A stretch of 64,000 nt of DNA from the human T2T-CHM13v2.0 reference genome, Homo sapiens, in NCBI RefSeq assembly GCF_009914755.1, contig NC_060934.1, one strand, 5' to 3'. The notes under the pieces are model-generated. The model did not search any database, had not been told where the DNA came from, and worked only from the letters and a program-made list of their open reading frames with translations. The position numbers and the translations under genes were made by a program. Below, piece after piece: positions 34,522 through 42,000 of this stretch (position 1 is the first letter of the stretch; each line of letters starts with the position of its first letter).

Positions 34522-34617
34522 TGAAGCCTTCTCTTCTTATTAAGACAGCTGTGAGCTTGCACTCCAAAGTTTTTATAACACTCCCTGCTAATTTAGTGTG
34601 TGTCTCTTTGACATGTA

Positions 34618-34626
34618 AAGTAAACA
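34618..34626. promoter_or_regulatory. Forkhead (FOXA/HNF3) motif AAGTAAACA / TGTTTAC
   Basis: Exact TRTTTAC consensus between the TATA box and the inferred TSS. Confidence 0.6.
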
Positions 34627-34641
34627 ATCACCTAGATCCAA

Positions 34642-34647
34642 TTTATA
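34642..34647 (-). promoter_or_regulatory. TATA box (TATAAA); TSS inferred near 34616. A second TATAAA lies at 34572-34577.
   Basis: Minus-strand TATAAA at -121..-126 and -51..-56 from the ATG. Confidence 0.7.
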
Positions 34648-34660
34648 CTTTTTTTCTGAG

Positions 34661-35059: not shown

Positions 35060-35360
35060 AACTCATACATGTTGAATTACCATACATATATCAAATTATT
35101 AGCTAATAAATGTATATTTATATATATTTAAATGTATATAAACAATATACATAAATATATATGTTATTACATAATAATATTTGTGTTATTATTACATTAT
35201 TATAATAATAGGTGATTATTTACTTTACATGTCAAAGAGACAAACTGAATTAGCAGGGAGTGTTACATACATTATTACATAATAATAACATAAATACATA
35301 TTTATACTATTAAATATTATATTAAATATATAAAAGTATATATATAAATGTATATTCATC
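35060..35360. repeat. AT-rich low-complexity block containing an inverted copy of the CYP2C8 core promoter
   Basis: Almost all A/T except 35209-35265. Confidence 0.85.
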
Positions 35361-36433
35361 ATTAAAAGAGACTGGAGTATAAAGATTATCATTTTTTATT
35401 TTTCAAATTGGGAAAGAAACTCTGGGAGAACAGGACACCTGTCAGTGCCACACAGCTCATTGCCGGTAAAACCGGGATTTGAGCAGAGATCTTCTGATAC
35501 CCATTGGGGTTCATTACCACTTACACCACAGCTGGCTCAAGAACAATTTTAGAAAAACAAAACAAACCCCAGACATTAGTTACTCTGAAGATACGCCACC
35601 TTGACTCTGTTCAGAAAGCAACAGGCTTCACATTAAATAGAAGTCCGTTATTTGTTTATAAGGATAAGAGGACCGGAGACGCTCAAAAGAAGAAATAAAA
35701 ATTAGAGTTCTCCCCTCTGCATCACCTCACAAGTGAAAGTTGTTCAGCACTATTAAGGAAAGGGCCAATCTCACATAATTTATGGCACAGGGCTTGAAAA
35801 TCTATGGCTTCTCCACCTTCCAGTCACCTCCAGACATGGCTGCTTCTATTGTTTTTGGTCTGTTATTGTTACAAATAATAGAATGTAATCATACACAGCA
35901 AGGAAGAGAAATTATACACAGAACAACAGTTGTGGATTCAACAGAAGATGGAACACAGGGAAATCACTGAATGGACCCAGGGCACAGAACCACTGCAATG
36001 TGCAGACCTGAAATGGGAACTGATAGTCAATGGTCATGAAGATCTAAATACAACTGGATTTATGAACATTACTAGATCACTAATAACAAAGTGTGTATAC
36101 AAAGGCATGCTCTGAAAAGATTACCTTTATTCTAAATTGACCAGTACAGTTATTTCCAGCTCTTTCATTAAGAAAATATTAAGACCCAGTTATACAATGT
36201 TTTATCGATTATGTTTATAGACATTATGACAAATTTACAGAGAATTTTCACACTCATCACATCTCTTTTTATTCTCTCAATTATCTTTGCCCACTGTAAA
36301 ATTATTCCCAGTTTAGAGAGGAGAAAGTTAGACCATGGAGATTCAGTACTTTAGCTAAGGACACACAGAATGCAAGTGACCAAGCTGGGGCTGGAAACCA
36401 TAACCCCTGCATCTTGCTGCCTTCCTTTTAAGC

Positions 36434-38517: not shown

Positions 38518-39048
38518 AGACAAATGGGACTTAATTAAACTAAAAAGCTTCTGCACAGCAAAGAAATAATTAACAGAGTAAACAGACAACCTACAAAATA
38601 GAGTAAAATATTTGCAAACTGTGCATTCAAAAAAGAGCTAATATCCAGAATTTATAAGGAACTCAAACAAGTCAATAAGACAAAACAAATAACCCCATTA
38701 AAAACTGGGCAAAGTTCCAATTGTCACAGGATATTGTTGCATTTGTTTTAGAGGTCTTAGTTATGAATTATTTGCCTAGGCCAATGTCAGAATTTTTCCT
38801 AGGTTTTCTTCTATGATTTTTATGGTTTTAGGTCTCATATTTGTCTTTAATCCATCTTAAGTTAATTTTGATATGTAGTAAGAATTAGGGGCCCAATTTC
38901 ATTCTTCTGTTTATGGCGAGCTAATTTTCCCAGCACCATTTATTGAATAGGGTGTCCTTTCCACAGTGTATATCTTTGTTAACTTTGCCAAAGATCTGTT
39001 GGCCATAGGTATGTGGCTTTATCTATGGGTTTTCTATTCTGTTCTAAT
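38518..39048. mobile_element. L1PB-like ORF2 fragment in two oppositely oriented pieces
   Basis: + strand piece 38518-38715; - strand piece ~38740-39048. Confidence 0.7.
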
Positions 39049-42000
39049 ATAGGAGTAAGGATTTCACATTATTTTTTGTAAGGTTTACAGTAGAGAGACT
39101 CTCTTTGTTTTTGAATTCATTTAATTTTTTTCTTTAATTTTTAATTTCTGTGGGTACATAGTGTACTTATTTATGGAGTATATGAGATGTGTTGATACAG
39201 GCATGTAATGTGTAAAAATCACATCACAAAAAATAGAATATCCATCCCCTCAAGCATTTATCCTTTGAGTTACAATATAATTATGCTCTTTTAGTTATTT
39301 TAAAAGGTACAATTCAATTATTAATGACTATAATCACTCTGGTTTTCTATCAAATAGTAGGTCTTTTATTTTAACTATTTTTTTGCATTCATTAAGCACC
39401 CCAGATACCCCCACCCTCCCACTACCCTTCCCAGCCTTTTGTAACTATGAGAGAGTAACTTCTCTAATAGACAGTAGAGTTACCAGAGGATGGGAAGGGT
39501 AGTGGGAGAATGGGGGGTATGAAATGAGTTAAATTTCTTTGATTTTTAGAACCCACAAATAAGTGAAAACAAGCAATGTTCATCTTTCTGTGTCTGGCTT
39601 ATTTCACTTAACATAGTGATCTCCAGTTGCATCTAAGTTGTTGCAAATGACTGGATCTCATTCTTTTTTTATGGCTGAATAGAACTTCTTTGTGTATATA
39701 TGCCACATTTTCTTTATCCATTCGTCTGTTGATGGACACTTAGGTTGATTCCAAATCTCGGCTATTGTGAGCAGTACTGTGACAAACATAGGAATGCAGT
39801 TATCTCTTTGACACACTGATTCCCTTTCTTTAGGGTATACACCCAGCAATGGGATTGCTGGATCATATGGTAGCTCTATTTTTAGTTTCCAAGAAACCTC
39901 TAAACTGTTCTCTCATAGTGGTTGTAGTAATTTACCTTCCCACCAACAGTGTATGAGGGCTCCCTTTTCTCCACATTCTCTTTATTTGTTATTGCCTGTC
40001 ATTTGGATATAAGCCATTTTCACTGAAGTGAGATGATATCTCATTGTAGTTTTAATTTGCATTTCTCTGATGATCAATGTTAAGCACATTTTTATATGCC
40101 TATTTGCCATTCATACATCTTCTTTTGAGAAATATCTATTTGAGTGTTTTGCCCATTTTTTGATCAGATTATTAAATATTTTTCTACAGAAATGTTCGAG
40201 CTCCTTATATATTCTGGTTACTAATCTTGTGTCAGATGGGTAGTTTGCAAATATTTTCTCCCATTCTGTGGGCTGTGTCTTCACTTTGTTGATTGTTTTA
40301 TTTATTATGCAAAAGTGTTTTAACTTGATGTGATCTAATTTGTCCACTTTTGCTTTGGTTGTCTGTGCTTGTGGGGTATAGCTCAAGAAATCTTTGCCCA
40401 GACCAATGTGTTGGAGATTTTCCTCATTGTTCTCTTGTAGTATTTTCATAGTTCGAGGTCTTAGATTTAAGTCTTTAATCCATTTAGATTTGATATTTGT
40501 ATATGATTATAGATAGAGGTCTAGTTTCATTCTTCTGCATATGGATATCCAGTTTTCCTAGCACCATTTATTGAAAAAACTGTCTCTTCCCCAGTGTATG
40601 TTCTTAGCACATTTGTCAAAAGTGACTTCACTGTAGTTGTGTAAATTTGTCTCTGGATTCTCTATTCTGTTCTATTGGTTTATGTGTCCTTTTTTTATGC
40701 CGGTACCATGTTGTTTGGGTTACTCTAACCTTGTAGTAAAATTTGAAGTCAGGTAATGTGGTTCTTCTGATTTTATTATTTTTGTTTAGAATAGCTTTTG
40801 CTATTCTAGGTCTTTTGTAATTCCTTATAAACTTTAGGATAGTTTTTTTGTCTATTTCTGTGAAGAATGACGTTTTTTTTTGGTAGTGATAGCATTGAAT
40901 CTGTAGATTTCTTTGGGTAGCAAGAATATTTTAACAATATTGATTCTTCCATTCCATGAACATGAAATATCTTTTCATTTGTTCCCTGTTCTCTTCAATT
41001 TTTTAAATTAGAGTTTTACAGTTTTTTTATAGAGATCTTTCTCTCATACTATTAAGTTAATTCCTAGATCTTTAATTTTGTTTGTGACTATTGTAAATGA
41101 GGTTACTTTTTAATTTTTTTTCAGGTTGTTCACTGTTGACATATAAAAAGACTACTTATTTTTGTATGTTGATTTTGTATCATGCAACTTTACTAAATTT
41201 CTAAATCAGTTCTAATAGCTTTTTTAGGTGGAATCTTTTGGTATTTCCAACTATAAGATTATACCATCTGCAACAAGGGTAATTTGAATTTGTCCTTTTC
41301 CATTCAAATGCCCTTTATTTCTTTCATTTGTCTGATTACTCTAGCTAGGACTTCCAATATTATGTTGAATAACAGTGGTGAAAATAAAAATGGGCATTGT
41401 TTTTAAACTCTAGATCTTAGAGAAAAACCTATCAATTTTTCCTCTTTAAGTAAGATAATAGCTATCATAATTAATAGTTCCATCATATATGAGTTTTACT
41501 GTGTTGAGTTTTATTTCCTTTATTCCCCGTTTTTTGAGGGTTTTTATCATGAAAGGATGTTGAACTTTATCAAATGATTTTCCAGCATCAATTGAAATGA
41601 TCACATAGTTTTCATTCTGTTGACAGGATGTATCACATTAATTGACTTGCATAAGTTAAACTATCTTTCCATCCCAGGGATAAATCCCACTTGATCACAA
41701 TGAATGGTCCTTTTAAAATATTGCTGAATTCAGCTTGCTAGCATTTTGTTGAGAATTTTTGCATCAATATTCATCAGCAAAATTGGCCTATAGTTTTTTC
41801 TTTTTGATATGTTTTTGCCTGGTTTTATTGTCAGGGTTACACTGGCTTTGTAGAATGAGCTTGGAAGTATTCCCTCCTGCTCTATTTTTTTTGGGGGGGC
41901 ATAGTTTGAGTAGAATTGGTATTAGTTGTTTTTTAAATGTTTGGTGGGATGCAGTGGTGAAGCTTTCGGGTCCAGGGCTTCTCTTTACAGGAAGATTTTT

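What the first reader, a model, noticed from the sequence alone, without database searches (positions are those of the whole stretch)
35106..35356. Inverted copy of the CYP2C8 core promoter ~600 bp upstream: a candidate divergent promoter
Seen: 35209-35265 (+) TAGGTGATTATTTACTTTACATGTCAAAGAGACAAACTGAATTAGCAGGGAGTGTTA is a copy of minus-strand 34634-34576 (FOXA site, inferred TSS, early 5' UTR), with 3 substitutions and a 2-nt indel. It keeps a TRTTTAC forkhead motif (TATTTAC) and has TATAAT 21-26 nt upstream of the copied start base. It sits in a scrambled AT-rich block bounded by 13-bp direct repeats ATAAATGTATATT (35106-35118 and 35344-35356). Inference: a templated-insertion or template-switch repair scar that duplicated a FOXA/initiator module facing away from CYP2C8. 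It could act as an extra FOXA site or a divergent promoter flanking the HNF4A sites, and the inverted pair could be a substrate for promoter inversion. I do not recall it being described.
Basis: partly seen in the sequence, partly recalled or inferred. Interest (0 to 1): 0.8.

Follow-up and report, generated by a model that had tools for sequence, protein, structure and literature searches.

The report
Inverted CYP2C8 start-site copy: repair scar
A 57-base piece of the CYP2C8 gene's own start site has been copied backwards into a fragile AT-rich stretch about 600 bases upstream, most likely as a harmless DNA-repair scar and not as a second promoter.

Summary
Window 35209-35265 (+) is the reverse complement of 34576-34634, which is CYP2C8 -18..+41 around the RefSeq start at 34616. 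The two differ by 3 substitutions and a 2-nt gap. The match occurs nowhere else in the window, and 0 of 100 shuffles reproduce it.

New here: the surrounding AT-rich block is specific to the CYP2C8 lineage. All 4 informative paralogous promoters in the same genome have 39-79 bp where CYP2C8 has about 265-305 bp, and the 13-bp direct repeats sit at the edges of that gap. The copy carries CYP2C8-specific derived bases, so it was copied from CYP2C8's own promoter. It keeps an ancestral G where the promoter now has A. It lies exactly at the symmetry centre of a local 17-nt quasi-palindrome.

Best reading: a microhomology-mediated fold-back or template-switch insertion into break-prone AT-rich DNA, now neutral. 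Nothing supports a divergent promoter. The TATAAT is one of 25 TATA-like hexamers in the block, the real TATA box was not copied, poly(A) hexamers follow within 82 nt, and no + strand transcript is annotated. Function could not be tested. Interest is low to moderate.

The parts
34576..34634 (-). Source segment: CYP2C8 core promoter and early 5' UTR, -18..+41 relative to the RefSeq start at 34616. It contains a forkhead-like TGTTTAC at 34620-34626 but not the TATA box, which lies upstream near 34643-34648.
   Evidence: Homologous segments exist in 4 paralogous promoters.
35209..35265 (+). Inverted copy of the source, 57 nt. Differences from the source: 35218 A (source G at 34625), a CA-tract shortening with 35243 A, and 35247 G (source A at 34594). 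The base equivalent to the start site is 35227.
   Evidence: The copy shares CYP2C8-specific derived bases at 35219, 35221 and 35228, which 0 of 4 paralogs have.
35095..35384 (.). CYP2C8-lineage-specific AT-rich low-complexity block (GC 11-24% per 100 nt). It does not align to any paralog. In the multiple alignment it is a single insertion of about 224 columns.
   Evidence: paralogs have 39-79 bp here; GC; the arms resemble generic TA-rich arrays genome-wide, on both strands.
35106..35118 (+). Left copy of the 13-bp exact direct repeat bounding the block. The paralogs have one homologous copy.
   Evidence: Not significant alone (188 of 1000 shuffles).
35344..35356 (+). Right copy of the 13-bp direct repeat.
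35164..35179 (+). Left copy of a 16-bp exact direct repeat flanking the insert (partner 35272-35287). It contains a D-box-like octamer on the minus strand.
   Evidence: An exact repeat of 16 nt or more appears in 13 of 1000 shuffles..
35272..35287 (+). Right copy of the 16-bp exact direct repeat.
35178..35194 (+). Left arm of a 17-nt (16 of 17) inverted repeat. It ends 14 nt before the insert.
35280..35296 (+). Right arm of the 17-nt inverted repeat. It starts 14 nt after the insert. The arm coordinates sum to 70474, the same as 35209+35265, so the insert is exactly centred.
   Evidence: (33 of 5000 shuffles at the exact offset).
35196..35209 (.). Perfect 14-nt palindrome abutting the left junction. 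Its last base is the first base of the copy.

Best explanation
This is a fixed scar of error-prone DNA repair or replication restart and has no demonstrated function. Step 1 (shown): in the CYP2C8 lineage only, a short AT-rich motif about 590 bp upstream of the ATG grew into a TA-rich, self-complementary low-complexity block of about 240-290 bp. Step 2 (geometry shown, enzymology inferred): a free 3' end arose at the centre of a local quasi-palindrome in that block, at a hairpin or cruciform tip or a stalled fork. The + strand 3' end at about 35208-35210 paired by 1-2 nt of microhomology with the same strand about 575 nt away, next to 34634. It was extended for 57-59 nt through the CYP2C8 start site, then released and rejoined to the right-hand side. 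This produces exactly what is seen: the reverse complement of 34576-34634 appended after 35208. I favour an MMBIR/FoSTeS-like or Pol-delta fold-back template switch over classical Pol-theta end joining, because both the patch length and the template distance exceed what is usual for Pol theta. Step 3 (inferred): the patch has drifted neutrally. It adds one weakened forkhead-like motif and an initiator-like sequence without the real TATA box, inside DNA already full of TATA-like and forkhead-like matches.
For: The inverted copy is real and unique. The block is absent from 4 of 4 informative paralogous promoters. The copy shares CYP2C8-specific derived bases at three positions that 0 of 4 paralogs have, so the direction is promoter to block. 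The source has since changed: at 34594 it has A, while the copy and 3 of 4 paralogs have G. So the event is not brand new and is not an assembly duplication. The arms are generic TA-rich low-complexity DNA matching dozens of such arrays on both strands. The insert is exactly centred on a 16-of-17 inverted repeat with 14 nt on either side. This occurs in 33 of 5000 shuffles at the exact offset and 120 of 5000 within +-2. With the insert removed in silico, the minimum-energy DNA hairpin loop falls at the junction. The signature of an inverted, nearby template in or near a quasi-palindrome is the published MMB-TI / template-switch signature. PMC8421209 (passages read) describes germline events of this kind in normal individuals. 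PMC7954356 (passages read) reports 4017 great-ape events enriched in AT-rich DNA, with a maximum length of 128 nt. Against function: plus the hub annotation showing no + strand transcript.
Against: Overall palindromy of the two arms is not above composition (185 of 1000 dinucleotide shuffles score as high). Neither DNA fold is significantly stable (z = -1.04, 15 of 100 shuffles; 65 of 300 shuffles). The centring test was post hoc, and a match of that quality at any offset occurs in 1537 of 5000 shuffles. Junction microhomology cannot be measured without a pre-insertion allele, and outside the matched 57 nt there is none (by eye). Patch length (57 nt) and template distance (575 nt) are atypical. 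Pol-theta inserts are mostly under 25 bp and templated a few bases away (PMC5068794, passages read). Yeast fold-back inserts are 5-34 bp (PMC11724301, abstract and passages read). The great-ape screen searched only +-100 nt (PMC7954356). Neutrality is inferred from sequence only; no expression, ChIP, primate or population data could be consulted.
Confidence: 0.78

Rival explanations
1. The copied module is functional. It would act as an extra FOXA (pioneer-factor) site, or as an upstream antisense/divergent core promoter that modulates CYP2C8 transcription in liver.
For: The copy keeps a forkhead-like TATTTAC, the only TRTTTAC in the block, and the initiator-like start context unchanged. A TATAAT lies 21-26 nt upstream. 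The block sits where the presumed CYP2C19 promoter has its distal reported HNF3-gamma site: -623/-608 as quoted in PMC3467616 (passages) maps inside the 68-bp segment that CYP2C8 has replaced, under either numbering tried. A compensating forkhead site is therefore conceivable.
Against: The forkhead motif in the source is motif-only, is absent from 4 of 4 paralogs, and is weakened in the copy (G to A at 35218). The arms alone hold 6 loose forkhead matches, and the block holds 25 TATA-like hexamers. The true TATA box was not copied. There are 5 poly(A) hexamers within 470 nt and no 5' splice-site consensus within 1 kb downstream. There are no CpGs. No + strand transcript or binding-site feature is annotated there in the hub table. 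No paper was found linking CYP2C8 to such an element.
Confidence: 0.07
2. The whole block, with the promoter fragment inside it, arrived in a single insertion that made a 13-bp target-site duplication. Examples would be an L1-endonuclease-mediated A-tail or short retro-insertion, or a captured DNA fragment at a staggered break, with the tail later decaying into TA-rich low complexity.
For: The 13-bp exact direct repeats lie precisely at the edges of the paralog gap, and each paralog has one homologous copy. In the multiple alignment the block is a single insertion of about 224 columns. Thirteen bp is within the range I recall for L1-type target duplications (recalled, not tested).
Against: There is no poly(A) next to either repeat. 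An exact repeat of 13 nt or more is expected from composition in 188 of 1000 shuffles. The repeat motif recurs inside the block (35126-35139) and is the unit of other TA-rich arrays such as L008, which favours slippage growth. No multi-copy element family was found, only low-complexity matches at 67-88% identity. The fragment includes 18 nt upstream of the start site, so CYP2C8 mRNA is not the template.
Confidence: 0.1
3. It is an assembly artefact or a chance similarity.
For: AT-rich low-complexity DNA is hard to assemble, and only one assembly was available.
Against: 0 of 100 shuffles reproduce either sub-string match. The copy differs from the source at 3-4 positions, including one where it keeps the ancestral base, which a mis-assembly of promoter reads would not produce.
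Confidence: 0.02

Closest known systems
Germline microhomology-mediated templated insertions (MMB-TI; MMBIR/FoSTeS-type template switching), as in Osia et al. 2021, PMC8421209 (passages read)
   Same: The insertion lies near its template, in inverted orientation to it, in or next to a quasi-palindrome. It is fixed as a germline variant and harmless when it does not disrupt a gene.
   Different: Junction microhomology cannot be scored here because no pre-insertion allele is available; at most 1-2 nt are evident. The template is 575 nt away, while the yeast signature cited there is within 100 bp. The template happens to be the start site of a pharmacogene.
Short-range template-switch mutations in great apes (four-point model), Walker et al. 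2021, PMC7954356 (passages read)
   Same: A reverse-complement copy of nearby sequence, enriched in AT-rich DNA, that creates a new inverted repeat. At 57 nt the length is inside their range (median 12, maximum 128).
   Different: Their search space was +-100 nt, so an event with a 575-nt jump would not have been found. Most of their events are much shorter.
Pol-theta (TMEJ) snap-back templated inserts, van Schendel et al. 2016, PMC5068794 (passages read); yeast Pol-delta fold-back insertions, PMC11724301 (abstract and passages read)
   Same: A 3' end primes on its own strand, giving a reverse-complement insert. Synthesis is error-prone (about 1 error per 30 bp for POLQ). That could explain the copy-side substitution and the CA-tract slippage as errors made at synthesis.
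   Different: Those inserts are mostly under 25 bp (POLQ) or 5-34 bp (yeast), templated a few to tens of bases from the break. This one is 57 nt from 575 nt away.
Palindromic AT-rich repeats (PATRRs) and fragile TA-rich repeats (recalled; general background in PMC7999016, search listing only)
   Same: AT-rich, self-complementary DNA in which breaks are expected at the symmetry centre. The insert sits exactly at a local centre.
   Different: PATRRs are near-perfect palindromes of several hundred bp. Here only a 17-nt arm pair is clear, and overall palindromy is not above composition.

Membership tests
Templated inverted insertion / template-switch scar (MMB-TI type) | Inserted sequence matches a nearby template in reverse-complement orientation, beyond chance | tested here: met
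   57 nt against 59 nt, 574 nt apart, 0 of 100 shuffles.
Templated inverted insertion / template-switch scar (MMB-TI type) | The segment is an insertion relative to the ancestral state, and the template is the older copy | tested here: met
   The block and insert are absent from 4 of 4 informative paralogs. All 4 have the template homologue. The copy carries CYP2C8-specific derived bases. No orthologue (primate) test was possible.
Templated inverted insertion / template-switch scar (MMB-TI type) | Microhomology at both junctions | tested here: inconclusive
   No matching bases outside the 57-nt alignment. Any microhomology would be hidden within its terminal bases, and a pre-insertion allele is needed to see it.
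Palindromic AT-rich repeat (PATRR) | Near-perfect palindrome of several hundred bp (definition recalled) | tested here: not met
   arm-to-arm inverted score 34 against a shuffle mean of 30.7, with 185 of 1000 as high; fold energies not significant. Only a 17-nt arm pair stands out.
Divergent / bidirectional promoter | Transcription initiation on the opposite strand | not testable with these tools
   No CAGE or PRO-cap data are available. The hub annotation lists no + strand transcript here. The literature search found nothing relevant.
Divergent / bidirectional promoter | A core-promoter element set distinct from background, plus downstream signals compatible with a stable transcript | tested here: not met
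   the block has 22 TATAWA and 3 TATAAT, so the TATAAT is not distinctive, and the real TATA box was not copied; 5 poly(A) hexamers within 470 nt, 0 consensus 5' splice sites in 1 kb, 0 CpG.
FOXA/HNF3 binding site | Forkhead core motif (TRTTTRY, consensus recalled) | tested here: met
   TATTTAC at 35217 (+) and TGTTTAC at 34620 (-). The arms contain 6 further loose matches. Binding itself is not testable here.
Transposable element or L1-mediated insertion with target-site duplication | A multi-copy family elsewhere in the genome, or a poly(A) tail next to the 3' duplication | tested here: not met
   only low-complexity matches at 67-88% identity; these are TA-rich arrays; no poly(A) at either repeat.

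The most novel reading that the evidence does not exclude
The repair patch was co-opted. The AT-rich expansion destroyed or displaced the distal forkhead region that the presumed CYP2C19 promoter still uses. The patch then restored a forkhead site plus an initiator facing away from the gene. It would now act as a liver FOXA entry point or an upstream-antisense start that tunes CYP2C8 output. The unstable TA-rich arms around it would vary in length between people and contribute to unexplained variation in CYP2C8 expression.
Probability: 0.06. Interest if true: 0.55.

Novelty: new member of a known kind. Interest (0 to 1): 0.25.

Why it matters
If the best reading holds, this is a clean, datable example of a long-jump (575 nt) inverted templated insertion fixed in the human germline, exactly at the centre of an AT-rich quasi-palindrome. 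Published great-ape template-switch screens searched only +-100 nt and would miss this size and distance class.

There is also a practical consequence. The copy mirrors the first 41 nt of CYP2C8 mRNA. Short 5'-end reads (CAGE and similar) or short ChIP reads from the true start site can therefore mis-map to the + strand at 35227 and mimic a divergent promoter. A primer placed in 34576-34634 also has a second, inverted site 575 bp away.

It would matter for pharmacogenetics only if the block or patch proves polymorphic or bound by FOXA factors. Neither could be tested here.

Tried and rejected
1. Chance match: rejected.

2. Ancient shared feature of CYP2C promoters: rejected. 4 of 4 informative paralogs lack the block and the inverted copy. 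A fifth paralogous fragment, L020, stops at the distal edge of the block and is uninformative.

3. C10:95752328-95752386 (L009) as a third copy: rejected. It is an ordinary paralogous pseudogene promoter with an exon-1-like sequence, in normal orientation.

4. PATRR-type large palindrome: not supported.

5. Transposon or MITE: no family found.

6. Dating from divergence: abandoned as unreliable. The copy-side changes may be synthesis errors, given the POLQ error rate of about 1 in 30 (PMC5068794). Only one source-side change (34594) is informative.

7. Literature. No paper held both 'CYP2C8 promoter' and 'inverted repeat' (0 papers). For CYP2C8 with 'flanking region' and 'inverted', 3 papers were found, none relevant; one was checked. 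For CYP2C8 with 'templated', 15 papers were found and 10 listed, none relevant by title or abstract. For CYP2C8 with CAGE, antisense and TSS, 3 papers were found and 2 listed, irrelevant. In the 5-term search, none of the 15 listed papers mentioned CYP2C8. The key CYP2C reviews and papers (PMC2808111, PMC2845933) and PMC4419790 are not held. Bort et al. 2004 and Ferguson et al. 2005 were not seen, so a description of this repeat there cannot be excluded.

Full report
**Observation.** The repeat finder returns the pair as two abutting inverted repeats: 34598-34634 with 35209-35245 (37 nt, 95%) and 34576-34605 with 35236-35265 (30 nt, 90%). A gapped local alignment joins them into one match of 35209-35265 (+) to the reverse complement of 34576-34634. 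A 24-mer and an 18-mer from the copy each occur only at these two sites in 64 kb, and 0 of 100 dinucleotide shuffles give two matches. The RefSeq transcript in the hub table starts at 34616. The source therefore spans -18..+41, and the equivalent start base in the copy is 35227. TATTTAC (35217), TATAAT (35201-35206) and the 13-bp direct repeats (35106-35118, 35344-35356) are all present.

**Where the copy came from.** The window's own genome can be searched. The promoter segment has homologues upstream of CYP2C9 (L003, named from the hub's coordinates). It also has homologues in a presumed CYP2C19 (L002, with an ATGGATCC... start codon 1669 bases into the locus), a pseudogene (L009) and a presumed CYP2C18 (L019). 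The names CYP2C19 and CYP2C18 rest on recalled gene order. In the alignment, source and copy share T, T and C at 34624/35219, 34622/35221 and 34615/35228, where 0 of 4 paralogs have those bases. The copy was therefore made from CYP2C8's own promoter after the paralogs diverged.

- At 34594 the promoter has A, while the copy (35247) and 3 of 4 paralogs have G. The promoter has therefore changed since the copy was made, and the copy preserves the older state.
- At 35218 the copy has A, while the promoter and 3 of 4 paralogs have G. That change, and the CA-tract shortening, are on the copy's side.

**The setting.** BLAST of the CYP2C8 upstream region against each paralog gives collinear alignments on both sides of a hole.

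| Paralog | CYP2C8 stretch left unaligned | Paralog length at that site |
|---|---|---|
| CYP2C9 (L003) | 35095-35384 | 69 bp |
| presumed CYP2C19 (L002) | 35095-35384 | 68 bp |
| pseudogene (L009) | 35118-35382 | 39 bp |
| presumed CYP2C18 (L019) | 35078-35382 | 79 bp |

A fifth paralogous fragment (L020) ends at the distal edge of the block and says nothing. In a five-way alignment the CYP2C8 block is a single insertion of about 224 columns. The 13-bp repeat motif is present once in the paralogs' homologous sequence.

An exact repeat of 13 nt or more is expected from composition alone in 188 of 1000 shuffles. The same motif also recurs inside the block and as the unit of other TA-rich arrays such as L008. 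I therefore read the block as a slippage-grown low-complexity expansion and not a transposed element. A whole-genome search with the block found only such TA-rich arrays, at 67-88% identity and often on both strands of one locus.

**Fine structure around the insert.** Three features stand out.

- A 16-bp exact direct repeat at 35164-35179 and 35272-35287. A repeat of 16 nt or more occurs in 13 of 1000 shuffles.
- A perfect 14-nt palindrome at 35196-35209, ending on the first base of the copy.
- A 17-nt inverted repeat (16 of 17) at 35178-35194 and 35280-35296.

The arms of the inverted repeat lie 14 nt from either end of the insert, so the insert is exactly at their symmetry centre. On the exact symmetric diagonal, a match this good occurs in 33 of 5000 dinucleotide shuffles of the two arms. 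Within +-2 of that diagonal it occurs in 120 of 5000, and at any offset in 1537 of 5000. With the insert left out in silico, the minimum-energy DNA fold puts the junction at the base of the terminal hairpin loop.

These points are suggestive only. The test was devised after seeing the pattern. The fold energy is not exceptional (65 of 300 shuffles as low; z = -1.04 for the whole block). The arms as wholes are no more palindromic than their composition predicts (185 of 1000).

**Mechanism.** The geometry is what fold-back priming predicts. A + strand 3' end at about 35208-35210 pairs with the same strand beside 34634. Extending it along 34634 to 34576 yields exactly the reverse complement found after 35208. 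Microhomology is at most 1-2 nt at the left junction. At the right junction it is indeterminate, because the pre-insertion allele is unknown.

The published signatures match in kind.

- Germline and tumour MMB-TIs are short insertions, inverted relative to a nearby template, often in quasi-palindromes (PMC8421209, passages).
- Great-ape template-switch events number 4017, with median length 12 nt and maximum 128 nt. They are enriched in AT-rich DNA and were searched within +-100 nt (PMC7954356, passages).
- POLQ snap-back inserts are reverse-complement, mostly under 25 bp, templated a few bases away, and made with about 1 error per 30 bp (PMC5068794, passages).
- Yeast Pol-delta fold-back inserts are 5-34 bp (PMC11724301, abstract and passages).

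The 57-nt length and 575-nt jump are large for Pol theta, so I lean towards an MMBIR-like template switch. The enzymology is inference. Because synthesis may have been error-prone, the copy-side differences cannot be used as a clock. Only the single source-side change shows that time has passed.

**Function.** Nothing computed here supports a divergent promoter.

- The real TATA box lies upstream of 34634 and was not copied.
- The block contains 22 TATAWA and 3 TATAAT hexamers and 7 loose forkhead matches, 6 of them in the arms. The copy's TATTTAC is, however, the only TRTTTAC in the block.
- The forkhead-like motif in the source is itself a CYP2C8-specific novelty. It is not among the RefSeq binding-site features listed for the window, and it is weakened in the copy.
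- Downstream of 35227 on the + strand there are poly(A)-signal hexamers at 35309, 35321, 35361, 35632 and 35694. There is no consensus 5' splice site within 1 kb and no CpG in the block. Any transcript would be short-lived on the U1/poly(A) logic I recall.
- The hub table lists no + strand transcript.
- Arms of 57 nt are far shorter than the homology lengths I recall being needed for efficient recombination, so promoter inversion is unlikely. I did not test this.

No expression, ChIP, primate or population data were reachable, so function is unsupported but not refuted. One caution for anyone testing it: the copy mirrors the first 41 nt of the mRNA. Short 5'-end reads from the true start can therefore map to the + strand at 35227 and imitate a divergent start.

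**Prior description.** No held paper links CYP2C8 to an inverted repeat, a templated insertion or antisense initiation. The main CYP2C promoter papers are not in the library, so prior mention cannot be excluded.

**Verdict.** This is a real, apparently unreported instance of a known kind of mutational scar, in a well-studied promoter. It is probably neutral. Interest is low to moderate.

Noticed in passing
L002:1015-1082 (presumed CYP2C19 promoter), homologous to window 35095-35384: The distal HNF3-gamma site reported for CYP2C19 is quoted as -623/-608 in PMC3467616. Numbered from the ATG (TGTTTAT at -612) or from a start about 25 nt upstream of it, the site falls inside the 68-bp segment that CYP2C8 has replaced with the AT-rich block. 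The numbering base is uncertain: only 1 of the 3 quoted sites overlaps a forkhead motif under ATG numbering.
   Followed up: partly
window 35166-35175 and 35274-35283, minus strand: Two perfect matches to the recalled D-box / PAR-bZIP consensus (TTATGTAA within RTTAYGTAAY) lie in the 16-bp direct repeat flanking the insert. They are 2 of 4 octamer matches, and 2 of 3 decamer matches, in the whole 64-kb window. This could be chance in AT-rich DNA.
   Followed up: no
window 34594 (5' UTR, +23 from the start; 73 nt before the ATG): The CYP2C8 5' UTR has A where the inverted copy and 3 of 4 paralogs have G. This is a lineage-specific or possibly polymorphic change. Population data were not available.
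   Followed up: no
L009 (C10:95750828-95753886), minus strand: A CYP2C pseudogene promoter with an exon-1-like sequence lies between the presumed CYP2C19 and CYP2C9. The start-codon position reads ATT, not ATG. Its promoter segment is 86% identical to the CYP2C8 copy.
   Followed up: partly
L020 (C10:95802875-95803305): A truncated paralogous fragment of the distal CYP2C promoter only (homologous to window 35392-35916) lies about 14.5 kb upstream of CYP2C9. No proximal promoter is aligned.
   Followed up: no
L019:2179-2700 (presumed CYP2C18 promoter): About 520 bp of extra sequence relative to CYP2C8 sits between the homologues of window 34945 and 34944. It was not characterised.
   Followed up: no
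window 39408-39446 and 39478-39516: A 39-nt inverted repeat, 87% complementary, with a 31-nt spacer. From recall the sequence looks like part of a LINE-1 3' region. Not checked.
   Followed up: no
window 35096-35109: A perfect 14-nt palindrome lies at the proximal edge of the block and overlaps the first bases of the 13-bp direct repeat. Most of it is also present in the pseudogene L009 homologue.
   Followed up: no
window 38564-38669 and 40193-40298: A 106-nt inverted pair, 72% complementary, 1523 nt apart. Probably two copies of an interspersed repeat. Not checked.
   Followed up: no
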